The translations under genes and the position numbers were made by a program. Positions 2,398 through 39,173 of a stretch of 39,173 nt of DNA are shown in pieces (the first letter of the stretch is position 1; each line of letters opens with the position of its first letter). This DNA comes from a virus (lineage: Duplodnaviria; Heunggongvirae; Uroviricota; Caudoviricetes): IMG/VR virus record IMGVR_UViG_2563366802_000014, one strand, 5' to 3'. The notes below the pieces were generated by a model. That model had not been told where the DNA came from. It saw only the letters and a list, made by a program, of their open reading frames with translations, and searched no databases.

Positions 2398-2695
2398 GTT
2401 TAGACCTCGATATTTTGAAAATATGAACAACGTTACCGCGTGTTTTAATAACCGCGGCAAGCATGACAGCGTTGATAATGACCTCAGATAAATCCACAGC
2501 CATTGGCGTGCGTAACCAGATTGCATAGACGACACGAACAGGAATACTTGCCGCAGCAACAATAAGGAAATAAGCAAGCCACCCTCCCCATCTTCGATGT
2601 TGAGAGCCGTTACGCCGGAATGTGACAACGCGAATTGCTATGCCAGTACAAATAACTGCATTGGTGATAAGCAAAAAAAACTCATGCGTTACCAT
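2387..2695 (-). CDS. Small membrane protein, holin or antiholin candidate
   Basis: 102 aa with 2-3 predicted hydrophobic helices; immediately upstream of and overlapping the endolysin start. Confidence 0.5.
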   Translation of the reverse strand: MVTHEFFLLITNAVICTGIAIRVVTFRRNGSQHRRWGGWLAYFLIVAAASIPVRVVYAIWLRTPMAVDLSEVIINAVMLAAVIKTRGNVVHIFKISRSKHGD

Positions 2696-3086
2696 CGTCT
2701 TTTCTCCCCGGAATTAACTCGCGTGGATTATCGGAACGGTGATAGAGCCAGATGCCAATACGCACGGCGACAATTGCTGACACGAATGCGCCTGCAGAAA
2801 AAACAATCCCTTTTTCAAAAGAGTCCTGCGTGATGGTAGGGATCAGGCTGGCTATGCCGATAAGAATTGATGCTGCTGGTTTGTAAAAGAGAAGGCCGCA
2901 AAGAAAGCTGATCATCGACAGGAGCACCCGGCGACGGATGGGGTACTCTACTGCAGAGGTAACAAAAATTACCGCCCCAGCCAAAGCCCCTAAAGCAACC
3001 TCCGGAGGGACACCTGCAATAACCGCAGCAAGAGAACTAACACTAAGCCACTGATTTGAAGTTTCATTGGTTAGTTGGAATGACAT
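2682..3086 (-). CDS. Membrane protein, putative holin
   Basis: 134 aa with about 4 hydrophobic segments and charged C-terminus; first gene of the lysis cassette by position. Confidence 0.5.
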   Translation of the reverse strand: MSFQLTNETSNQWLSVSSLAAVIAGVPPEVALGALAGAVIFVTSAVEYPIRRRVLLSMISFLCGLLFYKPAASILIGIASLIPTITQDSFEKGIVFSAGAFVSAIVAVRIGIWLYHRSDNPRELIPGRKDDGNA

Positions 3087-3158
3087 AACGAAACCCGTTT
3101 ATTTGCAAACACCCTGCTTCAGGAAAAGTATACCGCGCAACAACACACCATTTACGGT

Positions 3159-5621
3159 TCAATTCCCTGTTAATTGCAAAACTTGCTCTTCCAGCTTTTT
3201 AACCCTGCGTCTCATCATCGCAGATTCCAGAATCAGAGCCTCTTCATAACGGATACCGTAACATTCACCAGCCTCGACGGCTTCGCGTACCAGAACCTTT
3301 GTCTGTATAAGTGGGTAAACTCCTGCAGAATGCTCTTCTTCCGTCACATCCCTGTATTCTGCCGGGGTCTCATTCCACTTGTCATAACAGATAAATGCCA
3401 GTCGTGACACATCTATGCCTTCATTCTGAAATACACTGATAACATGCTGCGCAACTGCACCAAAGTGCCATCTTGCTCCGTCTTTACCTTTCACTTCGAT
3501 CCTGTCAAGGTACTGGTATGAAACCCATTCCACTCTTTCCCATGCGTCCAGTATTTTCTCATCAATAACCTCTGGAGCAGTCTTGAAACGCGCATCGGAC
3601 AGCACCGTAAACGCTGACTGGGTAAATCCCCCCGACCATGCACGACCAGCCAACCCAAGAGAATAAGTATTCGTTGTCGATGGTGTCATGGCTGAATCAG
3701 AAAACTGTATATATTCTGAATTTCCAGTAGATATTCGAATATTTCCATTTATTAGCGACATAGTGCCTTTAGTATTATCACTATTGAATAATTTCAATTG
3801 CGAACTTATACCGCCTCCCACAGCCAGAGATACATCGCCTTCAGCAAGCATTCTGAATTTATCTGCAGAAACAAGCGTCTGGTTAGCAAGGTTAAAATAT
3901 TTAACCCACCATTCAAAACGCCCTGACATAGTCCCAACGTACTGACCAAGCGCAGGGACGTGAACAACATTGCTATTTGTAGTGCCGTCTATACTGGAAA
4001 TACCAGTCACCGCTGATGCAGAACTCAGAATATTATTTCTGTCACCCGGATGTTTAATTTCAACAAAGTTCCTGATACACCCTTCCTCGAAGGTAACCAC
4101 GCCGGAAGAACTATACATGGGGAATATTGACGCATAATTACTGCGTGCAGCATCTAAGAAACGAATGGTTGTAGATGTCTGCAGATCTCCTGATTCATTT
4201 TTCCCATCACACCCAGTCATTAGAATATTACTGGCAATATTATTATTTCCCTGAACGGTGACGCCGTGCGCCTGCTTTGCGTCCGATTCAGAGTAATCAA
4301 CCAGCACATCCGAAATCAGGTTACCAGTCCCCTTGCCAACAACTACTGCGGCGTATTTTGGGTTGTTAGCCATTACACTGCTAATGATATTATTCGTTGG
4401 GGCAGTTTCCGTCTCAGTTCCATTGTAAACAACGTGCTGACACTCTTCACCAATAACATTGCTGACAATGTTATATTTTGCTGCTGTTTTAAGTTCCACT
4501 GCACCAAACTGAGGATAATTTCTGGCTATCACACCATCAATTAGCGTATTTTGCGATGAATCAAAAAGCACACAACCTGCTTTTTTATTATTTGCGAACC
4601 CTAAATACTCTCCTCTTATATCTCTAACAATGTAACCTGACGGAATACCATTATTCGGATAAGCGATCAAGCTAAATCCTGTTCCTCGCGTATTTGTAAA
4701 TCTGATATTTTTAACCGATACATCATGGCCACCTGAAAATGACACCTGGTGTCCCTGCACACTATCATCTGATTTATTTCCCATAATTGTTAGCGTACTA
4801 AGCATGCCACCATCGGGCATGTTAAAAACCAGATGATTACCATCTCTGTCATACTGTTTTATCGTTCCCCCACCTGTTCCGTACAAGCCACAACGTGAAA
4901 GAGAAACTAAAGATGTATTGAATACCCCTTCCGGAACAAAAACACTGCTAAACGAATGTAATGATTTTGTAAAAGCATCCTTGTTATCATTTAAGATTCC
5001 ATTTTGAGCTCCAAAATCCTTAATGCTGACACCATCACGCATCTTATCCTGGAACGTTCTGTATACCGCTCCAGAACCATACTGAATAAACCAACCAAAA
5101 CCACCAATAACTCCGGCGATTGCAGCATCGACATAATTACGCATTGAGCGATTATTTACAGCGTCCTGCTCAAGTGATGGATCGGCAAGGTTAGATATTC
5201 TGTTTTGCTTTGCATCGTAATATTTTGCAAGCAAAGATGGTTTCATCAATGCACGTCTGAACCACCCAAAACATCGCTGGATCAGCATCGTCAGGTAGTC
5301 AAATGCATCCTCATGAACTTCGGGGAAAAATTTTCCCTGATTGCGAAGATCAGTCTCCTGCACCACATCAAGCACACGCTCTATCGTGATTCGCCAGCCA
5401 GCAGCAAGCGGCGACGGAAGAACCACTGCACCGCCACTATAAGTTCCCGCCCCTGTTACCGTATAACCAGCATCCAGCACTAGTTTTGTAACGTTACCGT
5501 TAAGGTCAGACACCTGAACAACCAGGTCGGATTTTTTGAAAATACGGAAGGTATACGGAAATGATGTCGTAACGCCGTTACCTGTGTATTCGTTGTGGTC
5601 AACTTCGGTTGAGACCGTCAT
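3159..5621 (-). CDS. Tailspike / tail fiber, probable polysaccharide depolymerase with C-terminal S74-type intramolecular chaperone domain
   Basis: 820 aa; N-terminal particle-binding-like segment; central Gly/Asn-rich repeats suggestive of beta-helix; C-terminal motif LSDARFKTAPE matching the S-D-x-R-x-K autoproteolytic chaperone signature; RBS GGAG upstream. Confidence 0.75.
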   Translation of the reverse strand: MTVSTEVDHNEYTGNGVTTSFPYTFRIFKKSDLVVQVSDLNGNVTKLVLDAGYTVTGAGTYSGGAVVLPSPLAAGWRITIERVLDVVQETDLRNQGKFFPEVHEDAFDYLTMLIQRCFGWFRRALMKPSLLAKYYDAKQNRISNLADPSLEQDAVNNRSMRNYVDAAIAGVIGGFGWFIQYGSGAVYRTFQDKMRDGVSIKDFGAQNGILNDNKDAFTKSLHSFSSVFVPEGVFNTSLVSLSRCGLYGTGGGTIKQYDRDGNHLVFNMPDGGMLSTLTIMGNKSDDSVQGHQVSFSGGHDVSVKNIRFTNTRGTGFSLIAYPNNGIPSGYIVRDIRGEYLGFANNKKAGCVLFDSSQNTLIDGVIARNYPQFGAVELKTAAKYNIVSNVIGEECQHVVYNGTETETAPTNNIISSVMANNPKYAAVVVGKGTGNLISDVLVDYSESDAKQAHGVTVQGNNNIASNILMTGCDGKNESGDLQTSTTIRFLDAARSNYASIFPMYSSSGVVTFEEGCIRNFVEIKHPGDRNNILSSASAVTGISSIDGTTNSNVVHVPALGQYVGTMSGRFEWWVKYFNLANQTLVSADKFRMLAEGDVSLAVGGGISSQLKLFNSDNTKGTMSLINGNIRISTGNSEYIQFSDSAMTPSTTNTYSLGLAGRAWSGGFTQSAFTVLSDARFKTAPEVIDEKILDAWERVEWVSYQYLDRIEVKGKDGARWHFGAVAQHVISVFQNEGIDVSRLAFICYDKWNETPAEYRDVTEEEHSAGVYPLIQTKVLVREAVEAGECYGIRYEEALILESAMMRRRVKKLEEQVLQLTGN

Positions 5622-5725
5622 GTTAAATCTCCAGATAGTCGCAGCACCCGTTGCGCCGCATATCTGGTTATTCTATTACCCAAAAAACCATATATGGATA
5701 GAAAGACTGTGAATATGAATAGATA

Positions 5726-5740
5726 TTACCTTTCAGGTAA
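5726..5740. promoter_or_regulatory. Operator-like palindrome TTACCtttcaGGTAA
   Basis: Perfect TTACC-N5-GGTAA inverted repeat about 40 bp upstream of the LexA box. Confidence 0.6.
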
Positions 5741-5777
5741 TTTTCAAAACGTGCTGGATAGCAAACAAATTATTTGC

Positions 5778-5797
5778 TACTGTATAAATATACAGTT
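5778..5797. promoter_or_regulatory. LexA (SOS) box TACTGTATAAATATACAGTT
   Basis: CTGT-N8-ACAG core at 5780-5795 with AT-rich spacer, close match to the enterobacterial LexA consensus, about 20 bp upstream of the 5818 start codon. Confidence 0.8.
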
Positions 5798-5817
5798 ATT
5801 GCATGGAGAAGATTAAG

Positions 5818-6075
5818 ATGCAGCAGTATCACTATCCACTGGAAGAGGGATTTACCGAAAGGATTCACACGCCGGGAGGCGTCAGGTCACTGGTGGAGGG
5901 ATCGCACTTGATGAAATTACTCCGGGATCTCGATAAGGATGGATTTAATGTCGATGGCCCACTTGCCGAACTGACTGCACTGATTAACTACGTCACCAGC
6001 TCACAGATGTCTATGCGGGATCTGCAAACACATCTCGACTATTGTGCCGAACAATTACGAAAACAAACCAGATAA
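5818..6075 (+). CDS. Small antirepressor-domain protein, SOS-controlled candidate antirepressor
   Basis: 85 aa from ATG 5818 (RBS GGAG 9 nt upstream; alternative start 5803); clearly similar to the C-terminal part of the adjacent 231-aa Bro-N protein (shared pattern LLxxL..DG..V.G..AELT ... RD.QTH..Y); preceded by LexA box. Confidence 0.6.
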   Translation: MQQYHYPLEEGFTERIHTPGGVRSLVEGSHLMKLLRDLDKDGFNVDGPLAELTALINYVTSSQMSMRDLQTHLDYCAEQLRKQTR

Positions 6076-6106
6076 GGTTTGTAATTACCAAGTGGAGTGC
6101 TTATAT

Positions 6107-6121
6107 TTACCTTTGCGGTAA
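6107..6121. promoter_or_regulatory. Operator-like palindrome TTACCtttgcGGTAA
   Basis: Perfect copy of the motif, lying in the loop between 7-bp inverted repeats GGAGTGC / GCACTCC. Confidence 0.55.
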
Positions 6122-6212
6122 ATTTACATCGCACTCCTCTTGTGCCATAGTAATCGGGCACTGGCAAAATCCAGTGCCGGGATTGGCGTCCCGGATTACT
6201 AAAAGGCGCATT

Positions 6213-6233
6213 CACCGCGCAAGCGGTTTTTTT
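6213..6233 (+). terminator. Rho-independent terminator after the small antirepressor-domain gene
   Basis: CCGC-GCAA-GCGG hairpin followed by seven T; preceded by a compact multi-hairpin element at 6150-6199. Confidence 0.5.
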
Positions 6234-6390
6234 ATGCGTATAGCACGGCCACATTCGTATTATGGTGGGCTGTGTGGGGGCACCGAAAGGTGCGCCGGGT
6301 CCTTTTAGCCGGTTACGCCAACCCTGCACAGTTCACCACCAACCGATTGGCGTCGGTAGTGGTGATTAACCAGACTAAAAGGTAACCACT

Positions 6391-7086
6391 ATGACAGCTA
6401 CAAAAAGCACGTCCATTTTTTCTTTCGAATCTCAAGCCGATATACGGGTAATCGTCATTAATGGTGAGCCATGGTTTATCGCTTCAGATGTTTGTCGGGC
6501 TATAGGCATAGCAAACCATCGAGATGCTGTTCGAAAACTTGATGATGATGAGAAGGGCGTCGCTTCAACCGACACCCCTGGCGGTGAGCAAGAATCGATC
6601 ATTATCTCCGAGTCAGGCCTCTACACACTGATCCTCCGCTGCCGCGATGCGGTGACACCAGGCACTATCCCCTACCGCTTTCGCAAATGGGTTACAGGTG
6701 AGGTTCTTCCTCAGATCCGCCGCACCGGAAGTTACATTAAAAACTCGCTCCCGCAGGAAGAACGCATAAAGATGGTTGCCGACCAGGTAGCCAACGCCAC
6801 GGCGTCAGCAGTAATGCAGGCGATGAAGATAGAGAACAAAACCTACAGCGCCCCGCTGAAGCCCGGCTACCGCAGCCTGATTCACTCGCCGTCTGGTGTT
6901 CTCGGCCTGACGGAAAACTCACTGCTGATGAATCTGCTGAACCAGTTACAGGAAGACGGGCACGACGTATCGGGCGCGGCGGCGGAGCTGACCACCATGT
7001 TTTGCTACATCGTTGGTGTGAGCAAGTGCCTGCGTGATATCCAGACGCACGCGGAGTACATCAACGACAAGGCTGGGTTCTTCTGA
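6391..7086 (+). CDS. Antirepressor, Bro-N domain protein
   Basis: N-terminal segment FSFESQADIRVIVINGEPWFIASDVCRAIG matches the Bro-N / antirepressor domain; C-terminal domain paralogous to the 85-aa protein. Confidence 0.75.
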   Translation: MTATKSTSIFSFESQADIRVIVINGEPWFIASDVCRAIGIANHRDAVRKLDDDEKGVASTDTPGGEQESIIISESGLYTLILRCRDAVTPGTIPYRFRKWVTGEVLPQIRRTGSYIKNSLPQEERIKMVADQVANATASAVMQAMKIENKTYSAPLKPGYRSLIHSPSGVLGLTENSLLMNLLNQLQEDGHDVSGAAAELTTMFCYIVGVSKCLRDIQTHAEYINDKAGFF

Positions 7087-7153
7087 CGGGCGGCGGCACA
7101 GGGACGTGCCTTTAAAATAATCATTGGCGATGTGATGTAGATTCGCGTAATAT

Positions 7154-7168
7154 TACCTTACGGGTAAA
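7154..7168. promoter_or_regulatory. Operator-like palindrome TTACCttacgGGTAA
   Basis: Perfect copy about 20 bp upstream of a -10-like TATATT and the RBS GAGGTG of the 7206 gene. Confidence 0.6.
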
Positions 7169-7205
7169 CCCCGTTTAATGGCGTTTCTATATTATGAGGT
7201 GATGT

Positions 7206-7841
7206 ATGCCACAACAACTGCTGAATCCGGCAAAGGTTACTGAAGTTTTCGCTCATCTGAACGAAACTCCAGACAACCGCGCCCTGTATTCAGAGTTAGT
7301 GAACGGCAACGATGTCACATCTGATGTCAAAGGCGTTTCTCTGGCTCCTGGATACCGCGTTGTCCGTGTAGACGATCGTAAGAAAGGCGAGATTCCACAG
7401 GCGCACTTCGAACTGGCATTGATAAATGACCTCACCGAAGAGGTAGTGTATTACAATCGTGTCATTATCCAACCTGACAGCTATCTTAACTGCCGACCTG
7501 TCACGCAGATATTGGTATGGAGAACCCAGAAGCCTAAGCATCGTGCTGTGCTTCATGATTTCGCCGGCATCATCTTCATGAACTACCTCTTGGAACGGTA
7601 CGATATCATCGTGTCAGATCGCAACCAGACTCATGAAGGCATGTCGTTCTGGCAGGCTCGCATGTATGACGCACTGGAACTTGGCCTCCACCTCTATGGT
7701 TACGACATGATGACATGCGAGCTGATAGAGATGAATAACGAGGAAGAGCTTGAGAAAGGTGAAACCTGGTTGTGGGGTGATGCGGAAAACTTCCAAAACA
7801 GATTGGCCATAATTTCAAAGCATAAGCTGCCAATAAAATAG
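7206..7841 (+). CDS. Hypothetical protein (211 aa), accessory gene with own operator and terminator
   Basis: ORF from track; strong RBS GAGGTG; acidic soluble protein with no motif I recognise. Confidence 0.6.
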   Translation: MPQQLLNPAKVTEVFAHLNETPDNRALYSELVNGNDVTSDVKGVSLAPGYRVVRVDDRKKGEIPQAHFELALINDLTEEVVYYNRVIIQPDSYLNCRPVTQILVWRTQKPKHRAVLHDFAGIIFMNYLLERYDIIVSDRNQTHEGMSFWQARMYDALELGLHLYGYDMMTCELIEMNNEEELEKGETWLWGDAENFQNRLAIISKHKLPIK

Positions 7842-7847
7842 TTCTTT

Positions 7848-7872
7848 AAGCCCGCGCCGCGGGCTTTTTTGT
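7848..7872 (+). terminator. Rho-independent terminator
   Basis: GC-rich hairpin GCCCGCG..CGCGGGC followed by six T, just after the stop codon of the 7206..7841 gene. Confidence 0.7.
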
Positions 7873-7908
7873 GTCTGCGGATTCCCGCCCTGGCGGCGGT
7901 GGCATTCG

Positions 7909-7934
7909 TTAAAAACAAGGCCGCGAAAGCGGCC
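7909..7934 (-). terminator. Rho-independent terminator (minus strand)
   Basis: Hairpin GGCCGC-GAAA-GCGGCC with GNRA-type loop, followed on the minus strand by TTGTTTTTAA; convergent with the plus-strand terminator. Confidence 0.65.
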
Positions 7935-7935
7935 T

Positions 7936-7947
7936 GTGACATGTCAC
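7936..7947. repeat. 12-bp perfect palindrome GTGACATGTCAC (copy 1 of 3)
   Basis: Overlaps the TGA stop codon of the 98-aa membrane protein gene and abuts the terminator. Confidence 0.8.
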
Positions 7948-8240
7948 GTTCCTTTTCTGAATGATAGCCATTCGAAAAATGATGACATTCCACCGCAGAC
8001 AATAGCAAAGATGATCCCACCAAAGAAGAGAAGGCCAGCCTGCCACCACTCCCACCGCCATACATCCACAGCGCCAACCATACCAACAATCGCTCCAACA
8101 AATGGAATATAGCTCACGATGAAAGCAATGGGGGCTGCAATTATCCAGTGCAATCCCCACCATGATTCAAGCCCAGCCATAATTGCTGCCAACTGAAAAA
8201 GACCAACGACGATATAAACAATGAATCCTATAGCTTGCAT
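7944..8240 (-). CDS. Small integral membrane protein (98 aa)
   Basis: ORF from track; 3-4 hydrophobic helices rich in G/A/I/W; RBS AGGTGA upstream; follows the internal virion protein genes. Confidence 0.6.
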   Translation of the reverse strand: MQAIGFIVYIVVGLFQLAAIMAGLESWWGLHWIIAAPIAFIVSYIPFVGAIVGMVGAVDVWRWEWWQAGLLFFGGIIFAIVCGGMSSFFEWLSFRKGT

Positions 8241-8252
8241 GTAGTCACCTAT

Positions 8253-8426
8253 TTACCCAGTAAAAATCAGAGGCCTCCCCTCAATAAGGCTTGCAACAAG
8301 AACTACTCCCTGCACAACAAAGATGAACCAGCAAATAGCTTGAGTCTGAGGGTTAAGAAAATATTTGTAGCGGTCAATAAATAACAGCCCACCAGAAATT
8401 ATCACACTCAAAATAATTAAAAACAC
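8253..8426 (-). CDS. Very small hydrophobic protein (57 aa, GTG start), tentative
   Basis: Hand-translated minus-strand ORF below the 60-aa track cutoff; RBS AAGGAAG 4 nt upstream of GTG; stop 12 nt before the next start. Confidence 0.35.
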   Translation of the reverse strand: MFLIILSVIISGGLLFIDRYKYFLNPQTQAICWFIFVVQGVVLVASLIEGRPLIFTG

Positions 8427-8435
8427 AACACTTCC

Positions 8436-10910
8436 TTATTGCGGAGTGACATCCTGAGGTCGCCACCAGTATGTCTGGTTAAACTCTTTCTTCGAACGTT
8501 GCTCCATTTTACGCAAATAGCCTGGTGAAAAATACTCCTGCATCTGGTTAAAGATCATGTGATCAAGAGCTGCCTTCAAGTACCAGAGATTCGCACCTGG
8601 CATCAGCCCTTTCCCAAGTTTCACCAGATCACCACCAGTCTGCTCGTTCTTCCCTTCCACAGCATTTAATGGTATGCCCTGAGCTATCTTCACTACGTCA
8701 TCAATCAGGCCAGCTACCGGGCCAAGCATCGACGCCAGCGCGCCGCTTCCGTACCTAGTGTGATCTGACAATAAAAAGTCACCGTAAAGGCCAAGACCAC
8801 CACCTTTCAGTAGAGCACCAAGCCAAAATTTAGCAGCATCTTCTCCTGTCATCTCGCGAGGATTACGACCAGACGCAAGGTCGTTAAGTTGCTGCGACAA
8901 AGCGCCAAGAATGGTCGTACTGGCAATAAACGTCGCAATATATGCCGCACGCCCACCAGCAGACGGCATACCCATAGCGCGTGACCAGTGACGCATAACC
9001 ACCGAGATAGGGAACGATTTAAACAGGAAAACACTTCTCGTTAATTCACCTTTCCATGTTCCACGCTGAATACCAGAACCGGTTATCAGTTGCTCACGTG
9101 CTCCCGGTGTAATAACAGCCATATCAACTTCTTCAGTTACGGCACCGAGCAGTTTACGCATTGCCTCAAATTTCACGCGTTCAGGCTCACCAAGATGTTT
9201 AACTGCTGAATCAGGGATACGCATAATGCTTTCCGGTGTCAGCATCGTATTATTACCGTTCCCCCAGTCCTCCTGTTGCGCCAGCTTCCATACGCTCCAG
9301 TCTGTGTCAGTAATCCCTTTGCTTTTCAGGATACGAAAATCAGAGTCATCGAGGCTACGAAGGTCTGGTGTCCGTGACACTACTTCTCCCAGGCTTCCCA
9401 TCATGGTTACGCCATAGGCGCGCTTGTGCGCATCTGACCATGCTGTAAGCCCACTGGCACGCATTACCGCCGTTGCTGCCCAACGAGACACTGACGGCCC
9501 CATATTATCCATCGCCCAGCGGTTAACGCTGCCAAGTAGAGATTCCATTGCCAGACCAGCGCGGCGCGCCCGCGCAAGTTCTGTACGGTTCGTTGGGTCC
9601 ATAGCTTCAAGCTGGTTGCGGAATAACTGGTTCATTGGAAGGTTGGTCACCTTCGCAGACAGATACATGGTTCCAAGATCAGAGAACGATGATAGCAACG
9701 CGGATCCGAGTCTGCTGGCAACCAGCCAGTTGCGGATATTGTCAGACCATCGCGCGATGTGCGGATTCGCTACAGGCTGTGTCTTTCCGGAAATAAAGTT
9801 GTACAGATTCTCTGTGTTGTTCGCCAGCCGCTCGACTTTACCGGTTTTACTCGGGTTAGCTGTTGCCGTTTCTGCCTTAACCTGATCAAGAAGGGAGCGG
9901 AAAACATGATCGGGGTTTGGACCATATGTTTCCACCAGAGCAATATCTTTACTGATACCTTCCAGGTGACCGACCATGATTTCCCATAGAGAGCGATCGC
10001 CATAAAGTTGTTGATATTGGAGATAGGAATCAGCATCTTTGAAATGTATCTGTCGTGATGCATTACCACGGTTAGCACGTGCGCCGGAAATTCGCATTCC
10101 GGTATCAGTAAGCTTATTCAGCCCACCAGTAGCGATCGTGTTATAAGCCTCTCCAAGAAATGCAGACAACTCGGCACCGTTCATCAGTTGTCCATCGGCT
10201 CGGGTATAATATTTGCGATCCAGCTTACCTATAACATCGTTAACCCACTTATCCTTTGATACCGCCCCAACCTTTTCCATAGAATGATGTTGAGGGATCC
10301 CCCAGTTTTCGAGATAGCCAATGTCCCCACCAGCATCATTAAACCGGCGGCGCAGCAGCTCTGTAACTTCTCTCCACGCCTTAGCACCTTTTCTTGCTTT
10401 AGCATTGCCAGTATTTTGCCCCCGCATTTCATATACCAGGTCACGTACGCCCGCTTCATCTTCAAACAGACCAAAAAAGCGAGGATCAACTGCTTCGAAT
10501 GCCTCCTGCAATTGACTCAATGCATAATCACGGGTGGCTTTTGTTCTGGATTCAACAGAGAGGAAATTAGATTTACCGTCTGCATTAAAAGCTATAGTAC
10601 GGTTAAGAGCGCCAAGTTTCCCATCAGCCCCTTGATAGCTATTGATAAATTTATCCAATCTCTGACGCGCGGCTATAGTGAGAGCCACACGACGTTTCTT
10701 TAATGCCGCTTCTCGCTGTAATTCTTCAGATGCCAATTGTGCTGCTCGATATAGCCGCTCTGATTCGGAAAGTTGTCGCCACGACATCGGGTCATCACGA
10801 GCAATGGAGCGCATATTTCGATAAATGCGGTCTTCAATGTTCTGTATTTCTCGCGCCGTTAACATGCGCTGCGCCGCCTGCTGAACCGCCTGTATACATT
10901 CCTGTCTCAT
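8436..10910 (-). CDS. Large internal virion / ejection protein (824 aa)
   Basis: Large ORF in the run of virion genes between the tail-tube-like genes and the tailspike; role inferred from size and position only. Confidence 0.55.
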   Translation of the reverse strand: MRQECIQAVQQAAQRMLTAREIQNIEDRIYRNMRSIARDDPMSWRQLSESERLYRAAQLASEELQREAALKKRRVALTIAARQRLDKFINSYQGADGKLGALNRTIAFNADGKSNFLSVESRTKATRDYALSQLQEAFEAVDPRFFGLFEDEAGVRDLVYEMRGQNTGNAKARKGAKAWREVTELLRRRFNDAGGDIGYLENWGIPQHHSMEKVGAVSKDKWVNDVIGKLDRKYYTRADGQLMNGAELSAFLGEAYNTIATGGLNKLTDTGMRISGARANRGNASRQIHFKDADSYLQYQQLYGDRSLWEIMVGHLEGISKDIALVETYGPNPDHVFRSLLDQVKAETATANPSKTGKVERLANNTENLYNFISGKTQPVANPHIARWSDNIRNWLVASRLGSALLSSFSDLGTMYLSAKVTNLPMNQLFRNQLEAMDPTNRTELARARRAGLAMESLLGSVNRWAMDNMGPSVSRWAATAVMRASGLTAWSDAHKRAYGVTMMGSLGEVVSRTPDLRSLDDSDFRILKSKGITDTDWSVWKLAQQEDWGNGNNTMLTPESIMRIPDSAVKHLGEPERVKFEAMRKLLGAVTEEVDMAVITPGAREQLITGSGIQRGTWKGELTRSVFLFKSFPISVVMRHWSRAMGMPSAGGRAAYIATFIASTTILGALSQQLNDLASGRNPREMTGEDAAKFWLGALLKGGGLGLYGDFLLSDHTRYGSGALASMLGPVAGLIDDVVKIAQGIPLNAVEGKNEQTGGDLVKLGKGLMPGANLWYLKAALDHMIFNQMQEYFSPGYLRKMEQRSKKEFNQTYWWRPQDVTPQ

Positions 10911-10915
10911 TTAAT

Positions 10916-12718
10916 TTAACCTCTCAAGAAACACGCCACAGCGACATCAAACAGGCTGGAATCCTGTATTGCCTGCTCACTTTCCCTGTTCGCTTCATCC
11001 AGTACTTCACGCGCACTGCGCGATTGTGGATTACCATCATCATCCAGCACGGTGATTATCATGTCAGGTGATTCAAGCAGCGAGTCTTCAGCTATACGCA
11101 GATCAATATCTCCTGCCGGATCTGCCATCATTTTTTGTTCTGTCTGTTGCAATATCTTACCGGGCTCAAAAGGAGCTACTTCGTCTGGCGTCCTGACCTC
11201 TGCTGTTTTATAGAATGAAACAGCCTGAGCATTAAGTTCACTTTCTGCCTGCTGTCGTCGTGCCAGTTCTGCTCGAGCTTCAAAAAACTGACCGCCAGGC
11301 TCATGCGGTGCCAACGCGTTACGGGAAAATTCCAGGCGCTCTTGTGCCTGCCGGATTCGTTGGTCAATATCGCGAAGTCTGACCTGTTTATCTGATCGAG
11401 CACGAGACAAAGCTTTACCGCTACCGGTTGGCTCTTCTGCAAGAATTTGTGCGCGCTGTTCAGTGAGATTTTCAATAATTCGTTGGCTATTAGCGATTTC
11501 AGACTGGTAAACCTGTCTATCGCCACGCGGCAAAAGCTGCGCGGCCTGTTCTTCAAGCAACCGATTTTCTATAGCGCGCGCCGTTACTCCATCATCTACA
11601 GATGACAGAGCCTCATTAACTGCCTGAGACAGCAGACTCTTGCGCCCAGGAATTTCACTGAAAGATGCAGACTCAACAATGCTGGCAACGTCTACAGGTC
11701 TCCCCTGGCTAACATCAGACATAGCTTTTCGCAGAGCCTGAATGTGAGAATTGCGCGAAAGCACGTTGATCGGCACGCCGGGCGCAATATCAATTTCAGC
11801 ATGATGAGCGGCATTCGCCGCCAGTGCAGCATCAACATCAACTGGTGAAAAATTTGGTGCGCTTGTAGACTCGCCGCGAGAGTTCATAAATCTGCCGACA
11901 CCACCAAACGCCACCCCAAGAACAGCATCAATAGCAATTGCCTGTCGATCCAACACATCATACTGGTTAGCCATTTCGCTATAGCCACCATCACGAAGCG
12001 TTTTTGCAGTAAGCCCACGCTGTGCCATACCGAACGCAATATTTGTACCTGCGGCATAGGCAATATCTGGCGTTGCACGCACTGCTGTTGCTGCGGCGCG
12101 TCGCACTGAACTTTCACCCGTCCGCGCAAGCTGGGCCGCCACACCTTCCGCCAGCGCACCACCAGCACGTAACCCGAGGCTCATAGGGATCAGTGTTCCG
12201 GCACCAGCAGTAATACCCTGCACTAATCCCGCTTCCTGCGCCGTCCTGAAATCAACACCCTGTGCTGTCAGCCGTTCAAACTCAGAAAAACCCTGTAGAG
12301 AAGTTACCGCCGCAGCACCTCCGACCGGACCACCGAGCGTTGTACCGACAACAGCCTGCCCTCCCATATCGAACAACCCATAAAGGACCTGCCCGGCGGT
12401 TCCGGTTGTCGCGGCATCAGGCGTCAGCCGCTTAACCTGCTGCTCTGCTAGTTTTCTCTGCTCAGCAATGTATGAAACTGAAGTGTCATTAAGCGAGGTG
12501 TTTTCGTTAACAAACTGAGCAATCGGGGATACGATTTTATCCATCCCTGCCCATAGCAACTGATCTGGCTTTGCCACCAGCCCGGAGTACAAACCAGACA
12601 ATGCCGCTCCTACAGCATTGTCGAAAAAACCAACATTGCTGTTAAAGCCAGCTGGATTTGATGCTGCTTCGTCAAGCTGCTGATTCTGGCTTACTGGATT
12701 AAGGCCAAAGTAACTCAT
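10916..12718 (-). CDS. Internal virion / ejection protein (600 aa)
   Basis: Gly/Ala-rich large ORF translationally coupled to its neighbours; role inferred from position. Confidence 0.5.
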   Translation of the reverse strand: MSYFGLNPVSQNQQLDEAASNPAGFNSNVGFFDNAVGAALSGLYSGLVAKPDQLLWAGMDKIVSPIAQFVNENTSLNDTSVSYIAEQRKLAEQQVKRLTPDAATTGTAGQVLYGLFDMGGQAVVGTTLGGPVGGAAAVTSLQGFSEFERLTAQGVDFRTAQEAGLVQGITAGAGTLIPMSLGLRAGGALAEGVAAQLARTGESSVRRAAATAVRATPDIAYAAGTNIAFGMAQRGLTAKTLRDGGYSEMANQYDVLDRQAIAIDAVLGVAFGGVGRFMNSRGESTSAPNFSPVDVDAALAANAAHHAEIDIAPGVPINVLSRNSHIQALRKAMSDVSQGRPVDVASIVESASFSEIPGRKSLLSQAVNEALSSVDDGVTARAIENRLLEEQAAQLLPRGDRQVYQSEIANSQRIIENLTEQRAQILAEEPTGSGKALSRARSDKQVRLRDIDQRIRQAQERLEFSRNALAPHEPGGQFFEARAELARRQQAESELNAQAVSFYKTAEVRTPDEVAPFEPGKILQQTEQKMMADPAGDIDLRIAEDSLLESPDMIITVLDDDGNPQSRSAREVLDEANRESEQAIQDSSLFDVAVACFLRG

Positions 12719-15228
12719 TGCGGAATATCTCCGGAGAATCTCTGACGTTTCTGTGTCAGATTAAGAACAACGGGAGAACCATCATCTTTCAGCAGATAAC
12801 CAGTACCAAGTTTCACCAGGTACTGACTATCGCCGTAACTTTGCAAACCATACTGACCAGGCGGTGTTTTTATCCCGGAGCCGACAACTTGTTCATTCCA
12901 AGCCTGATTAACCTGCTTATCGAATTGCTCTGCAGACATTCCCCACGGCAAAAGGACATTCCCCATTCCGTTATAGTCATGCACGCCACCTGTAGCTACG
13001 TTAACAGCCTGTTTCCAGACATCATTGTCAATTTCGCCTGATACCACGCCTTTTTTCGCCATCACACCAGCGTAATAGTCCTTTGCGATCTCGTATGCCA
13101 TTGATGCCCCCTGAGCATCACCAGCAAATGCATCCTTCACCATGTCAGAAAACTCAAGGCGAAGATCAGCATCTTTAGGCATCGGAATACCTTTCGCATC
13201 ATCAGTACCTTTACGAGCCGCCGCGCCAGCAAGAATTGTCTGCGCAGCGGTTTCAGGAGACACGGAAACATCCGGATTAAACCAGTTTTTTTCTGCCAAA
13301 ATACCACCAGGCTTGTCCATCAGTATCCCGGCAACGGCAGCAGATGGAGCGTTGGCACTGATCTGCTGTAGTGCTGACATATACACCTGCCCACCACCAG
13401 TGCTCTGCCTGATGGTATCGAGATATGCTGCCTGTTGGGAAACTGGAGCATCACGAAAGAAAACACCGATCTGATTGGCCTCGTCTTTGGAAAAGAACGT
13501 CAGTGGAGTGCCATATGACTTAGCAAGGTCACTGACCTGAGCAGCACGCAAGGCAACGCTCTGTCCAAAGTTATCCTTATTGCTCATGTCGATAGGCTTT
13601 GCCTGTCCGGCGGCAAGAGAGAACTGTACAGGATCAGCCTGTCTCTGCTTTATCACCTGACTTGCAGCCGACACAACGTTGTCATAAAGAGCGGCTCGTG
13701 CCGCATAACCCTCCCCTGTCTCACCAGTATCCGGGCGTAATTGCTCAACATATGCTGTAATGCTGCTTGTCGGCATGTTGCGGAAAGAGCCTATATACTG
13801 TCCGGCGATTTGCGTATTTCTGAACTCGGTATATCGCAGGTTTCCTTCTCTGACTCCATAAGCTGCAATAAAATCAGCCTCACCAGGTGGGTTAGGAAAT
13901 TCAACGCCACGCATATACGCAGCTGTCGCATCGCGAACTTGGCTGTCAATCATCGTTTTATATTCAGCCTGCTGCTGCCGACGCAGTTGATCCGCCTGTC
14001 GCATAAAACTTGCCTGCGCCTCAGGAGATGCCGCATCGAATGCTGCATTACCGGTATAGCGTTTGGTGTTGGTTGGAATTGTTGATAAACCAAGTGCTGC
14101 ACTGACACCAGCAGTTAACTGCTGATCACTGTATGGCTGGCTACCGTTCTCATGATGGATAATGGCTGCACAAAGCGCCTTCAGGGTATCAGGATTAGAT
14201 GCATCGAGAGGCTCATCAGCAGAAACGCCAAGTTGTTCGCACACTGCTTTGATATACGACATAGTGTCATTTTTATCAGTAGGCGGTGCCCAGCGATTAA
14301 TTATCTCGCTGACGGTATCAATACCCTGTCTCTGATACGACATCAGGTTCCGCCCTAATGCACGAATCCCGTGTTCAGGTGTTTCGAATTTAGCAAATCG
14401 ACCATCATCACCGGTCTGGCCTACCCACGGATTGGTTTTGCTGTATTCGAGATTTCCTGGGTTATTGTTGCGTATGCCACGGGCACGCTCGGAAGAATCA
14501 CTATCTGCTACAGCACGGCGAGCTCCAGCAGCAGTATCACTTAACTCGCCATTACTTTGGATGAATGCGGTCGCATTGTTTGCCGACCACTGGGACAATG
14601 CTGCATCAGCAACCTTCTCTTTAAACTCGATTTTCTTGGCCTGGATTTGCTCGTCGCTCCAGCCATGCGCAATGCCGTAATCCTCAATTTGCTGGAAAGT
14701 TTGCTTATTAGCCAATACGTATGCGGCGTTGTCGCCATACAATGCTGCGGCATTTTTACCATTGTTCAGCAGCGTAGCCTGAAACTGGCCTTCTTCGTAG
14801 GCATTTATTTGCCCTATCTCGTGCCGCCCGGCCTGCGTAGTGAACTGAATGCGCTGCTGCTGCGCCTGCTGCATGAAAGCATTACGAGCCTGTTCATCCG
14901 GCAGCGACATAGCCAGTTGCTCGACCTTGGCATCAAACTGCTGCGTATACTCCTGACCTTTTCCAATAGCATTTTTCCCTTTCAGGTTAAGCAAACCTGT
15001 TTCAGGGTTATTCAGCAGATCGCTGCTTATCTGGCTTAAGCTAAGAGAAGCATCCTGAGCCATAGCAACATTCGCACGCTGTTTTGCCTGCGCAATAATA
15101 CCTGCATATTGCTCTGCAACATCGCCAAGTACATCACCGACATTTGGTGTCTGAAACGATGAGAATCCCTGCGTCGAAATCCCTCTGCTCTGAACCTGAC
15201 GGCCCGATGTTGTTGGTACAACTGGCAT
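12715..15228 (-). CDS. Large internal virion / ejection protein (837 aa)
   Basis: Large ORF in the virion gene run; contains the segment GIRNNNPGNLEYSKTNPWVGQ of unknown significance. Confidence 0.5.
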   Translation of the reverse strand: MPVVPTTSGRQVQSRGISTQGFSSFQTPNVGDVLGDVAEQYAGIIAQAKQRANVAMAQDASLSLSQISSDLLNNPETGLLNLKGKNAIGKGQEYTQQFDAKVEQLAMSLPDEQARNAFMQQAQQQRIQFTTQAGRHEIGQINAYEEGQFQATLLNNGKNAAALYGDNAAYVLANKQTFQQIEDYGIAHGWSDEQIQAKKIEFKEKVADAALSQWSANNATAFIQSNGELSDTAAGARRAVADSDSSERARGIRNNNPGNLEYSKTNPWVGQTGDDGRFAKFETPEHGIRALGRNLMSYQRQGIDTVSEIINRWAPPTDKNDTMSYIKAVCEQLGVSADEPLDASNPDTLKALCAAIIHHENGSQPYSDQQLTAGVSAALGLSTIPTNTKRYTGNAAFDAASPEAQASFMRQADQLRRQQQAEYKTMIDSQVRDATAAYMRGVEFPNPPGEADFIAAYGVREGNLRYTEFRNTQIAGQYIGSFRNMPTSSITAYVEQLRPDTGETGEGYAARAALYDNVVSAASQVIKQRQADPVQFSLAAGQAKPIDMSNKDNFGQSVALRAAQVSDLAKSYGTPLTFFSKDEANQIGVFFRDAPVSQQAAYLDTIRQSTGGGQVYMSALQQISANAPSAAVAGILMDKPGGILAEKNWFNPDVSVSPETAAQTILAGAAARKGTDDAKGIPMPKDADLRLEFSDMVKDAFAGDAQGASMAYEIAKDYYAGVMAKKGVVSGEIDNDVWKQAVNVATGGVHDYNGMGNVLLPWGMSAEQFDKQVNQAWNEQVVGSGIKTPPGQYGLQSYGDSQYLVKLGTGYLLKDDGSPVVLNLTQKRQRFSGDIPQ

Positions 15229-37922: not shown

Positions 37923-39173
37923 TTATTCTCCCGCCATCCACTTCTCAAACTTCGACGGGGAGAACGGAATCAGATCCGTATGCTCCCCGTCAATCCAGGA
38001 ATCAATCATATCTGCCCACTGCTGCAACATGTAGGCGCGCTGTCTGGCGTATTCCGCTTTGTTATATACGGCGCGCACACCTTTCTGCTCATGTGCCAGA
38101 GCCTTTTCAATCCAGTCTGAAGGATAACCAGCCTCATGCAACAACGTACTGGCTGTACGGCGCATATCGTGTACGGTGAAGTCCTGAATATGCTCACCAT
38201 CTTCATTTATTATTTTCACCGTTCTGTCGATCAGTGAGTTCAACGCGGCATTAGATAATGGCTTCCGGAAATTGTAACGACCAGGAACCAGGTATTCACT
38301 TCCACCAGCGCACATCTGCAACCCAACCAATATATCCTGTGCTTGTTTAGGCAGGTAAATAACGTGCGCCCGGCTTCCCTTCATGCGGTCTGAAGGAATT
38401 GTCCATGTCCATTTTTTAAAATCTATTTCATCCCACGTTGCATTGGTGAATTCGCCTTTACGAACCATAGTGATAAGCACCAGCTTTAAAGCCATTTTCA
38501 TAGTGCCCATAGCACCAATGGCATCCAGCGTGCGGAAGAACAGACCAATTTCTTCTGGTGTCAGTGTTCGCTCTCGTGGTTTAAATATGGCGATAGACGA
38601 AGGTTTAATGTCAGCCGCAGGATTAAACAAACCATGACCACGGTCATTGGCATGACGGTATACGCTGCTGATGATCTCCCTGGCCTGCACTGCTGTTGCC
38701 AGGCCGCCGCGTTCGACAATCCGGTCACACAAATCACGAACCATCGATGTGGTAATTTCAGTCATCATTTTGTTGCCAAGAACCGGAAGTATGTCACGGT
38801 CGATCACCGCCTGCTTCATTGCGCGGGTACTGTCAGCCAGGATGACATGTTTCATATAACTGTCGGTATGTACCGCAAACGTCTCGGCACCACGAATCTT
38901 TTTGATACCGTCACGTTTAGCCGCAGCCGGTGACTGGCCTGCTTTAAGCAGCTTCTTTGCAGCAATCAGTTCTTCTCGCGCTTCTGCCAGGCTGATACCG
39001 TCACGCCCATACTGCCCGATTACCAGTGTTTCGCGGCGACCGTTGATACGGTAGTCATAGCGAAACGAGACCGTGCCTGACGTAAGCACAGCTACATACA
39101 GCCCGTCACGATCGGAGACCTTGTACAGTTTGTCCTGCGGCTTGAGGTTTTTTAATTTTGTATCGGTAAGCAC
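37923..39173 (-). CDS. int: Tyrosine integrase (P4-type); N-terminus at or just beyond the window edge
   Basis: C-terminal catalytic region HDMRRTASTLLHEAGYPSDWIEKALAH and a downstream Tyr in VYNKAEY; N-terminal arm-binding-like segment; ORF runs to the window end with GTG at the edge, so the true start may lie outside. Confidence 0.85.
   Translation of the reverse strand: MLTDTKLKNLKPQDKLYKVSDRDGLYVAVLTSGTVSFRYDYRINGRRETLVIGQYGRDGISLAEAREELIAAKKLLKAGQSPAAAKRDGIKKIRGAETFAVHTDSYMKHVILADSTRAMKQAVIDRDILPVLGNKMMTEITTSMVRDLCDRIVERGGLATAVQAREIISSVYRHANDRGHGLFNPAADIKPSSIAIFKPRERTLTPEEIGLFFRTLDAIGAMGTMKMALKLVLITMVRKGEFTNATWDEIDFKKWTWTIPSDRMKGSRAHVIYLPKQAQDILVGLQMCAGGSEYLVPGRYNFRKPLSNAALNSLIDRTVKIINEDGEHIQDFTVHDMRRTASTLLHEAGYPSDWIEKALAHEQKGVRAVYNKAEYARQRAYMLQQWADMIDSWIDGEHTDLIPFSPSKFEKWMAGE

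What the first reader, a model, noticed from the sequence alone, without database searches (positions are those of the whole stretch)
7944..8426. Two tandem small membrane protein genes after the ejection-protein genes
A hand-translated 57-aa hydrophobic ORF (8253-8426, GTG start with RBS AAGGAAG) is followed after 12 nt by the 98-aa multi-helix membrane protein gene. Their position between the internal virion proteins and the accessory island is where P22-type phages carry superinfection exclusion genes, but they could also be virion membrane-channel components.
Basis: inference. Interest (0 to 1): 0.45.

Follow-up and report, generated by a model that had tools for sequence, protein, structure and literature searches.

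The report
Two small membrane-protein cargo genes
Two real, conserved genes for tiny inner-membrane proteins sit at the very end of this temperate phage's virion-gene operon, in a slot that related phages fill with other envelope proteins; they look like accessory cargo, possibly blocking DNA entry by rival phages, but nothing tested here shows what they do.

Summary
On the minus strand of this epsilon15/phiV10-like (Uetakevirus) phage, a 57-aa ORF (8253-8426, GTG, SD AAGGAAG) and a 98-aa ORF (7944-8240) follow the 824-aa internal virion protein gp17 with 9-nt and 12-nt spacers. An intrinsic terminator lies 9 nt after the second stop.

Both are real genes:
- They are conserved across Enterobacterales.
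- dN/dS is 0.2-0.28 (p57) and 0.02-0.06 (p98).
- The predicted folds are a 2-helix hairpin (p57) and a 3-TM protein (p98, AF2 pLDDT 95.5).

They occupy a swappable slot. Phages with 99% identical gp17 carry a 46-aa peptide or a lipoprotein there instead. Near-identical p98 also sits behind gp17 types only about 25% identical. Two gp17-bearing relatives outside the genus lack the slot.

The p98 domain family has 748 representatives and no Pfam model. It also occurs outside phages, so a virion role is unlikely.

Neither protein resembles P22 SieA, holins or known defence proteins. Unlike sieA, they have no promoter of their own and appear to be late-operon cistrons.

Best reading: accessory inner-membrane cargo. 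An injection block is the leading but unproven mechanism.

The parts
8436..10910 (-). gp17-like internal virion (ejection) protein, 824 aa. It is an IVP-D / T7 gp16-family homologue and the last large gene of the late operon, immediately upstream of the pair.
   Evidence: ORF. phrog_684 at E = 0. tblastn finds 99.4% identity to ZX5, 98.9% to O157 typing phage 10 (a phiV10-type cassette carrier), and about 28% to an epsilon15 isolate. IVP-D assignment of epsilon15 gp17 comes from PMC4819975.
8431..8437 (-). Shine-Dalgarno AAGGAAG for p57. It overlaps the gp17 stop codon, with 4 nt to the GTG.
   Evidence: Read directly. In BUCT711 it is replaced by AAGGGGG, with a TTG start.
8253..8426 (-). p57: a 57-aa two-helix membrane hairpin. 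The basic loop DRYKYF is predicted cytoplasmic, so both termini are predicted periplasmic.
   Evidence: 13 clusters, 22 invariant columns. Hydropathy. dN/dS 0.19-0.28. AF2 helices 2-19 and 26-49, pLDDT 78. No Pfam, PHROG, NCBIfam or PADLOC hit.
8245..8250 (-). Shine-Dalgarno-like AGGTGA for p98, inside the 12-nt spacer.
   Evidence: Read directly. It is conserved in BUCT711.
7944..8240 (-). p98: a 98-aa integral membrane protein, phrog_3075. It has three spans (about 2-28, 32-60 kinked at Pro46, and 65-88), Trp-rich interfacial loops and a basic C-terminal tail. Predicted topology is N-out / C-in.
   Evidence: invariant G13, Q16, A19, G29, P46, G49, G53, G56, A57, W63.... (748 representatives at E <= 1e-3).. 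(pLDDT 95.5). (dN/dS 0.02-0.06).
7911..7935 (-). Intrinsic terminator closing the late operon: AGGCCGC-TTTC-GCGGCCT followed by TGTTTTT. It starts 9 nt after the p98 stop.
   Evidence: RNA fold of the 46-nt stretch 7905-7950, which holds this hairpin, is -16.5 kcal/mol, z = -2.8. The equivalent terminator is annotated in phiV10 and this flank is conserved in relatives.
7848..7866 (+). Convergent terminator of the opposite-strand island (Bro-N antirepressor 6391-7086; 211-aa phrog_1349 gene 7206-7841). It marks the boundary of the slot.

Best explanation
p57 and p98 are genuine non-structural accessory genes. They encode small inner-membrane proteins and form the last two cistrons of the late (virion) operon, in a recombinationally swappable cargo slot directly after the IVP-D-type ejection protein gene.

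Shown here:
- Both are real, constrained genes.
- Both are predicted membrane proteins.
- They are transcriptionally appended to gp17 and end at a terminator.
- The slot is exchangeable independently of gp17.

Inferred:
- They act in the cytoplasmic membrane of the infected or lysogenic cell, not in the virion.
- The most likely specific activity is interference with genome entry by incoming short-tailed phages at the inner membrane. That is a SieA- or Imm-like injection block, reached by an unrelated protein.
- Because p98 is highly conserved while the gp17 partner varies, the target would more plausibly be a conserved host inner-membrane component, or a conserved feature of the ejectosome, than the phage's own gp17 sequence.
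- Expression would come mainly from late transcription, plus any read-through or an unrecognised internal promoter in the lysogen.
For: Real genes.

Membrane proteins.

Operon anatomy: 9-nt and 12-nt spacers with SD sequences, and a terminator 9 nt after the p98 stop. On the minus strand of 5600-11000 the scan's only match lies inside p98, so none could serve p57. There is no consistent promoter upstream of homologues in L003, L006 or L009.

Swappable slot:
- ZX5 gp17 is 99.4% identical but is followed by a frameshift-split 2-TM gene plus a lipoprotein.
- phiV10 and its relative O157 typing phage 10 (gp17 98.9% identical) carry only a 46-aa 2-TM peptide.
- p98 at 89-100% identity follows gp17 types only 23-29% identical to the window's.
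- The position between gp17 and p98 holds p57, a 54-aa 2-TM protein, a 103-aa 2-TM protein, 102/123/175-aa signal-peptide proteins, or nothing. All of these are envelope-targeted.
- Conserved flanks (gp17 3' end and terminator) bracket the variable part.

Distribution:
- Two gp17-bearing phages outside the genus, BcepC6B and VP2, go straight from IVP-D to the tail fibre.
- All seven phage records with p98 are Escherichia or Klebsiella phages. The three read here are Uetakevirus, and BUCT711 carries an integrase.
- The cassette sits as a prophage in 205 of 5426 complete E. coli genomes.

Not virion-specific: family members occur in integrative elements with DUF805 and DUF6804 genes, and in a chromosomal ndk-purN neighbourhood.

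[quoted passage not shown] It blocks injection, and escape mutations map to the ejection proteins gp16 and gp20 (PMC10883804).
Against: - There is no functional data of any kind.
- There is no promoter of its own, whereas known prophage exclusion genes (P22 sieA; HK97 gene 15, from my own knowledge) have one. A purely late-expressed exclusion protein gives less obvious benefit.
- There is no similarity to SieA, to any PADLOC defence model, or to any annotated PHROG.
- p98 evolves slowly. Its dN of 0.03-0.06 is about half that of gp17 in most of the loci compared. It also has non-phage relatives. Both fit a housekeeping-type membrane function at least as well as an arms-race function.
- The consensus promoter scan is crude and cannot exclude an internal promoter.
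Confidence: 0.35

Rival explanations
1. Host-physiology cargo unrelated to phage exclusion. p98, with or without p57, is a general small inner-membrane protein picked up from bacteria. It alters membrane physiology of the carrier cell, for example stress tolerance, transport or envelope homeostasis, as its non-phage relatives presumably do.
For: - The p98 domain family has 748 representatives at 50% clustering. Many are stand-alone proteins of about 100 aa. Some are fused to DUF805, RDD or MORN regions.
- In Mesorhizobium and related contigs it forms a cluster of p98-like, DUF805 and DUF6804 genes beside an integrase or resolvase.
- In another lineage it lies between ndk and purN/purM.
- In Buttiauxella it follows umuDC.
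- Very strong purifying selection.
Against: - In enterobacterial phages the gene is always glued to the end of the late operon with no visible promoter. That is odd for a lysogen-benefit gene.
- The alternative occupants of the slot (lipoprotein, secreted proteins, TM peptides) look like a phage-envelope interaction locus.
- No function is known for any relative, so this reading explains little.
Confidence: 0.25
2. Lytic-cycle membrane function. As late proteins they would act in the producing cell. Possible roles are tuning lysis timing (holin or antiholin modulators), protecting the inner membrane from the membrane-active ejection proteins made at the same time, or preventing progeny from injecting into the dying cell.
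For: - Late-operon position with translational-coupling-like spacers and a shared terminator.
- A small hydrophobic gene follows the gp17 homologue in every Uetakevirus record examined and in one unclassified Pseudomonas phage: phiV10, SPN1S, an epsilon15 isolate, BUCT711, a frameshift-split copy in ZX5, and Shamal.
- Weak sub-threshold Pfam match to holin family Hol44 (E = 0.027, 15.2 bits against a cut-off of 29.2).
Against: - A complete lysis cassette lies elsewhere in the window: two holin-family genes, an endolysin and an Rz-like spanin.
- The occupants of the slot are non-homologous and of different classes. The slot is empty in BcepC6B and VP2, so no essential lytic role is tied to gp17.
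- The Hol44 match is far below threshold and appears in only 1 of 37 family members.
Confidence: 0.2
3. Virion or ejectosome components: small hydrophobic subunits packaged with gp15-gp17 that help form the trans-envelope channel.
For: They lie immediately after the three large internal virion protein genes, in the same operon.
Against: - Phages with 98.9-99.4% identical gp17 lack both genes.
- p98 pairs with gp17 types 23-29% identical.
- Family members exist in non-phage contexts.
- About three quarters of each protein is membrane-spanning helix, which is hard to reconcile with a soluble capsid-internal protein. That last point is inference.
Confidence: 0.05
4. One or both ORFs are not genes, only chance hydrophobic reading frames in an AT-rich spacer.
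For: - p57 is short, starts with GTG and has low GC (38.5%).
- It has no family hit.
- It is left unannotated in several phage records and in a RefSeq genome.
Against: - p57 keeps a length of 56-58 aa and 22 invariant columns across E. coli, Citrobacter, Klebsiella, Salmonella and Enterobacter.
- Its dN/dS is 0.19-0.28 at dS up to 0.75.
- Its SD and start are maintained with different codons in BUCT711.
- For p98 the evidence is overwhelming.
Confidence: 0.02

Closest known systems
P22 SieA (superinfection exclusion protein A, Lederbergvirus)
   Same: It is a small integral inner-membrane protein with 3 predicted TM helices. It is encoded next to the last ejection-protein gene and near an antirepressor island, between that gene and the tailspike gene. 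It is not present in all relatives. It blocks DNA entry, and escape mutations map to the ejection proteins (PMC10883804).
   Different: - SieA is 162-164 aa and has a cytoplasmic FxRYPxEAxxFNK motif.
- It is transcribed from its own promoter on the opposite strand to gene 16.
- p57 and p98 are shorter and co-directional with gp17, and the scan found no promoter that could serve p57.
- They show no sequence or profile similarity to SieA.
- SieA types diverge to below 30% identity, whereas p98 is strongly conserved.
phiV10 p21 / SPN1S_0020 / epsilon15 post-gp17 ORF (small 2-TM 'putative integral membrane proteins' of Uetakevirus)
   Same: They occupy the same position directly after the gp17 gene and before the same terminator. 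They share the two-helix hairpin architecture of p57 and have equally unknown function.
   Different: They are not detectably homologous to p57 (hhalign probability 0.4%). Those phages have no p98.
HK97 gp15 moron and T4 Imm (inner-membrane injection blockers)
   Same: They are small phage-encoded inner-membrane proteins that stop genome entry. HK97 gene 15 is an insertion inside a late structural operon. This rests on my own knowledge of Cumby et al. 2012 and Lu and Henning 1989; the titles are cited in PMC11436027.
   Different: - HK97 gene 15 has its own promoter and terminator and is expressed from the prophage. T4 imm is an early gene of a virulent phage.
- p57 and p98 gave no annotated PHROG hit at E <= 0.1.
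- Neither sequence was compared directly here.
phrog_3075, and the wider unnamed membrane-domain family found
   Same: p98 is a full-length member (E = 1.6e-54, 1-98 of 98). It shares the YIPxxGxxxGxxGAxxxWxW core with 748 representatives.
   Different: The family has no assigned function, no Pfam model and no structural neighbour, so membership says nothing about mechanism.

Membership tests
P22 SieA family | Sequence homology to SieA types A-C, including the cytoplasmic motif FxRYPxEAxxFNK | tested here: not met
   BLASTP of p98 against P22 SieA gave E = 20. hhalign of the p98 family profile against SieA gave probability 0.3%. The motif is absent from both sequences.
P22 SieA family | Own promoter and prophage expression, with the gene convergent to the ejection-protein operon | tested here: not met
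   sieA is on the opposite strand to gene 16 with an annotated promoter. p57 and p98 are co-directional with gp17 with 9-nt and 12-nt spacers, and no minus-strand sigma-70-like site lies upstream of p57. Expression itself cannot be tested with these tools.
P22 SieA family | Integral inner-membrane protein encoded between the last ejection-protein gene and the tailspike gene | tested here: met
   Predicted TM helices. Gene order is gp17, p57, p98, Bro-N island, tailspike. The membrane localisation is a prediction only.
P22 SieA family | Blocks DNA injection of related phages | not testable with these tools
   Needs plating, K+ efflux and DNA-entry assays.
Moron (HK97 gp15 type: autonomous promoter-gene-terminator insert in a late operon) | Present or absent between otherwise near-identical flanking genes | tested here: met
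   gp17 is 98.9-99.4% identical in typing phage 10 and ZX5, which carry different inserts. The flanks are conserved.
Moron (HK97 gp15 type: autonomous promoter-gene-terminator insert in a late operon) | Own promoter upstream and terminator downstream | tested here: inconclusive
   A terminator is present. The consensus scan found no promoter that could serve p57 in the window, and only weak, differently placed 9-of-12 matches upstream of homologues. The scan is crude and TSS data are lacking.
Moron (HK97 gp15 type: autonomous promoter-gene-terminator insert in a late operon) | Base composition different from neighbouring genes | tested here: inconclusive
   GC is 38.5% for p57 and 46.1% for p98, against 49.4% for gp17. 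GC3 is 0.38 and 0.43 against 0.45. The genes are short and biased by hydrophobic codons.
Holins (Pfam PF16079 Phage_holin_5_2 / Hol44) | Score above the Pfam gathering threshold | tested here: not met
   15.2 bits against a cut-off of 29.2, E = 0.027, and only 1 of 37 family members matches. The window has its own holin, endolysin and spanin cassette.
phrog_3075 | Full-length profile match | tested here: met
   E = 1.6e-54, residues 1-98 on profile positions 1-98 of 98.
Known anti-phage defence proteins (PADLOC-DB v2) | Match to any defence-system model | tested here: not met
   No hit at E <= 1 for p57 or p98.
Virion structural / ejection proteins of the epsilon15 group | Co-inheritance with the structural module, and presence in all phages sharing it | tested here: not met
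   Absent from phiV10, SPN1S, ZX5, BcepC6B and VP2, all of which have homologous gp17. p98 is decoupled from gp17 type.

The most novel reading that the evidence does not exclude
p98 is the founding member of a new, widespread family of inner-membrane proteins that block the trans-envelope DNA channel built by T7 gp16 / epsilon15 gp17-type (IVP-D) ejection proteins, with p57 and the other 2-TM peptides acting as partners or alternatives. It would do this by occupying a conserved host inner-membrane component. The slot after the IVP-D gene in temperate podophages would then be a dedicated, rapidly exchanging exclusion locus, and the non-phage relatives (clustered with DUF805 and DUF6804) would be chromosomal or ICE-borne versions of the same defence.
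Probability: 0.2. Interest if true: 0.6.

Novelty: new variant of a known kind. Interest (0 to 1): 0.33.

Why it matters
If these proteins block genome entry, they would define a new exclusion family aimed at epsilon15/T7-type ejectosomes. The inner-membrane steps of those ejectosomes are poorly understood. The proteins would also offer a genetic handle, through escape mutants, on which ejection protein or host factor forms the inner-membrane channel.

About 4% of complete E. coli genomes carry the cassette, so it could influence the susceptibility of clinical strains to therapeutic podophages.

Whatever the function, the analysis delineates three things:
- an uncharacterised, structurally confident membrane-domain family with no Pfam model;
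- a hypervariable envelope-protein slot that current phage annotations mostly miss;
- several occupants of that slot that are unannotated in GenBank records.

If the genes are simply late-expressed cargo of unknown use, the finding is ordinary.

Tried and rejected
Family searches:
- Pfam, NCBIfam and PADLOC scans of both proteins gave nothing usable. The only hit was a sub-threshold Hol44 match.
- Foldseek of the high-confidence p98 model against PDB and BFVD gave no match with E < 2. The top K+-channel-pore hits have TM-scores of 0.25-0.40 and are not meaningful. The afdb50 library was unavailable.
- A profile search against PDB sequences gave nothing below E = 0.5.
- A Pfam scan of 34 longer family members, looking for informative fused domains, found only DUF805 (3), RDD (1) and MORN (1).
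- DUF4112 appeared weakly (5e-4) in 3 of 37 members and was not pursued.
- hhalign of p57 against the phiV10 46-aa peptide gave no homology.

Context searches:
- The search for related loci with the diverse alignment A5 failed because no conserved stretch was available.
- With A3 on GTDB genomes it gave only 6 loci.
- The IMG/VR scan returned mostly near-identical relatives.

Literature:
- The phiv142-3 qRT-PCR paper does not report orf12 and its supplement has no data on it.
- The ZX5 paper says nothing on this locus.
- Cumby et al. 2012 is not held.

RNA: an Rfam scan of 7000-9500 found no RNA family.

Considered and rejected:
- A holin function, because a complete lysis cassette lies elsewhere.
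- An O-antigen polymerase inhibitor like D3 Iap or epsilon15 gp22. p98 is near-invariant across hosts with different O-antigens and tailspikes, which does not fit a hypervariable Wzy target. This is inference.

Full report
**What the window is.** Megablast and annotated relatives place the window in the genus Uetakevirus, the temperate epsilon15/phiV10-like podophages of Enterobacterales. Its closest relatives are Escherichia phages HEMP4, phiv142-3 and YDC107_2. An integrase gene lies at 37923-39173. On the minus strand the late operon runs through three large internal virion protein genes: 12715-15228, 10916-12718 and 8436-10910. The last is a homologue of epsilon15 gp17. Hardies et al. place epsilon15 gp17 in the extended T7 gp16 / IVP-D family of ejection proteins (PMC4819975).

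**Check of the observation.** Both ORFs exist exactly as described.
- The gp17 stop (TAA, 8438-8436) overlaps AAGGAAG (8437-8431). The p57 GTG follows at 8426.
- The p57 stop (8255-8253) is followed by a 12-nt spacer containing AGGTGA, then the p98 ATG at 8240.
- Nine nucleotides after the p98 stop lies a GC-rich hairpin with a T-tract at 7935-7911. The 46-nt stretch that holds it folds at -16.5 kcal/mol, z = -2.8. This corresponds to the terminator annotated in phiV10.
- The consensus scan reported no minus-strand sigma-70-like site upstream of p57 up to 11000. Its single minus-strand match (7988-7961) lies inside p98.
- No consistent promoter was found upstream of homologues in Cronobacter, Salmonella or Klebsiella prophages.

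The two genes therefore read as the last cistrons of the late operon.

**Are they genes?** Yes.
- p98 matches phrog_3075 end to end at E = 1.6e-54. It has 52 homologue clusters at 48-99% identity in Escherichia, Klebsiella, Cronobacter, Dickeya, Kosakonia, Yersinia and Salmonella.
- p57 has 13 clusters at 67-98% identity, all 56-58 aa, with 22 invariant columns. In BUCT711 it keeps its frame with a TTG start and a changed SD.
- Nei-Gojobori estimates against the window copy give dN/dS of 0.19-0.28 for p57. For p98 they give 0.02-0.06 among the enterobacterial phage copies (0.17 for the Cronobacter copy in L005), at dS 0.75-2.4.
- In the same loci gp17 has dN of 0.05-0.10 with saturated dS, and p98 has dN of 0.03-0.06 in most. 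p98 is thus about as constrained as a core virion protein.
- No Rfam family lies in the region.

**Protein anatomy.**
- For p57, hydropathy and AF2 give a helical hairpin (helices 2-19 and 26-49, pLDDT 78) with a basic loop DRYKYF.
- For p98, AF2 on a 37-sequence alignment gives pLDDT 95.5 with helices 2-28, 32-44, 46-60 and 65-97.
- Hydropathy shows three hydrophobic stretches in p98, so I read helices 2 and 3 as one span kinked at the invariant Pro46.
- The consistently basic C-terminal tails in the family suggest an N-out / C-in topology, with Trp-rich loops at both interfaces. This topology is inferred, not measured.

**Similarity to known families.** None was found.
- Pfam gave only a sub-threshold Hol44 hit. 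NCBIfam gave nothing. PADLOC gave nothing.
- PDB sequences, PDB folds and viral predicted folds gave nothing significant.
- P22 SieA gave nothing by BLASTP or profile comparison.

**The slot is exchangeable.** This is the most informative result.
- Phage ZX5 has a gp17 99.4% identical to the window's. After it come a frameshift-split 2-TM gene and a 126-138-aa lipoprotein.
- phiV10 and its relative O157 typing phage 10 (gp17 98.9% identical) carry only a 46-aa 2-TM peptide. SPN1S has the same arrangement.
- An epsilon15 isolate has an unannotated 2-TM ORF overlapping the gp17 end.
- Only the gp17 3' end and the terminator region are conserved between these genomes and the window.
- Conversely, among 101 fetched loci, p98 at 89-100% identity lies behind gp17 proteins only 23-29% identical to the window's.
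- The position between gp17 and p98 holds p57 (about 67 loci), or a 54-aa 2-TM protein, a 103-aa 2-TM protein, signal-peptide proteins of 102, 123 or 175 aa, or nothing.
- Every alternative occupant is envelope-targeted.
- Two gp17-bearing phages outside the genus, BcepC6B and VP2, go straight from the IVP-D gene to the tail fibre gene.

**The p98 domain is not phage-specific.** A profile search of 1.84 billion representatives found 748 members at E <= 1e-3 and 325 at E <= 1e-10.
- Most are stand-alone proteins of about 100 aa.
- Some are fused to further membrane regions, including DUF805, RDD and MORN.
- In Mesorhizobium-type integrative elements the gene forms a cluster with DUF805 and DUF6804 genes beside an integrase or resolvase.
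- Elsewhere it lies between ndk and purN/purM, after umuDC, or after an unrelated large phage protein in Microvirga.

**Interpretation.** These facts argue strongly against a virion or ejectosome subunit, and against a gp17-specific partner. The genes behave as accessory inner-membrane cargo in a hypervariable slot at the distal end of the late operon.

The known kind of system this most resembles is the phage-encoded injection blocker, and P22 SieA is the nearest positional analogue. It is an inner-membrane protein encoded next to the last ejection-protein gene. It blocks injection, and escape mutations map to gp16 and gp20 (PMC10883804).

The analogy is incomplete:
- sieA is convergent to gene 16 and has its own promoter.
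- SieA types diverge to below 30% identity.
- p57 and p98 have no promoter of their own detectable by a consensus scan.
- p98 is highly conserved and has non-phage relatives.

I therefore give the exclusion mechanism only about 0.35. The rivals are a general membrane-physiology cargo function (0.25), a lytic-cycle membrane role (0.2), a virion role (0.05) and non-genes (0.02). A holin role is unlikely because the window has its own two holin-family genes, an endolysin and a spanin.

**Novelty and verdict.** The genes themselves are already in databases as 'hypothetical protein' or phrog_3075. The cassette is present in 205 of 5426 complete E. coli genomes. In one RefSeq genome PGAP calls p98 but not p57.

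What is new here:
- delineation of the swappable envelope-protein slot after the IVP-D gene;
- the size and non-phage reach of the p98 family;
- a confident fold with no structural neighbour;
- the demonstration that the SieA analogy is positional only.

Function remains undetermined in silico. Interest is moderate to low unless the exclusion hypothesis is borne out.

Noticed in passing
L013 133-549 (-) and 561-763 (-) (phage vB_EcoP_ZX5): In ZX5 the slot after a 99.4%-identical gp17 holds a lipoprotein gene (lipobox LLVGC, 126-138 aa). It also holds two overlapping ORFs that together look like a frameshift-split homologue of the 54-aa 2-TM gene seen intact in L077 (5800-5964). This is either a pseudogene or a sequencing error.
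   Followed up: partly
L014 6703-6960 (+) (epsilon15 isolate VB_ST_E15); L105 4981-5412 (+) (Pseudomonas phage Shamal): Unannotated hydrophobic ORFs lie directly after, or overlapping, the end of the gp17 homologue. The epsilon15 one is about 64 aa with 2 TM helices. The Shamal one is about 115 aa with several TM helices. GenBank annotations miss them.
   Followed up: partly
L107 7001-8024; L108 4646-5669; L110 1747-2719; L109 1998-2970: In alphaproteobacterial integrative elements the p98-family gene sits in a conserved small-membrane-protein cluster beside an integrase or resolvase gene. In L107, L108 and L110 the cluster is p98-like, DUF805, DUF6804. In L109 no DUF805 gene is called. Single-chain fusions of the p98 domain with DUF805 also exist (P0083, P0084, P0088, P0101). 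No function is known for any of the three.
   Followed up: partly
L009 5684-5992; L085 5684-5992; L064 5621-5992; L095 5461-5988: In Klebsiella-type relatives the position of p57 is taken by secreted proteins of 102-175 aa with signal peptides. The 102-aa and 123-aa forms are related to each other. All are uncharacterised.
   Followed up: no
window 5803-7866 (+): An opposite-strand island lies between the late-operon terminator and the tailspike gene. It holds a 90-aa phrog_450 protein, a Bro-N antirepressor-like protein (6391-7086) and a 211-aa phrog_1349 protein of unknown function (7206-7841). It ends at its own terminator (7848-7866), convergent with the p98 terminator. It resembles the P22 immI region in position.
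   Followed up: partly
window 3086-3159, compared with L002 897-1913 (phiV10 oac): phiV10 carries an O-acetyltransferase gene between its tail fibre gene and the lysis genes. The window has only 72 nt between its tailspike gene (3159-5621) and the first holin-family gene (2682-3086). I did not scan the rest of the window for O-antigen-modifying genes.
   Followed up: no
L001 6071-6427 (phiv142-3 Orf12); L113 1545-1841: Annotation is inconsistent. phiv142-3 annotates the p98 homologue as 118 aa with an upstream start that runs into p57. Most phage records, and the RefSeq genome examined, do not annotate p57 at all.
   Followed up: partly
L006-L008 (Salmonella prophage): A p98 homologue (94 aa, 54% identity) follows an 833-aa gp17 homologue (26% identity) in a differently organised prophage. 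The p98 homologue is followed directly by Bro-N, small-terminase and T7-like large-terminase genes, and a faint T7 gp14 hit lies upstream. The association with the IVP-D gene therefore extends beyond Uetakevirus.
   Followed up: partly
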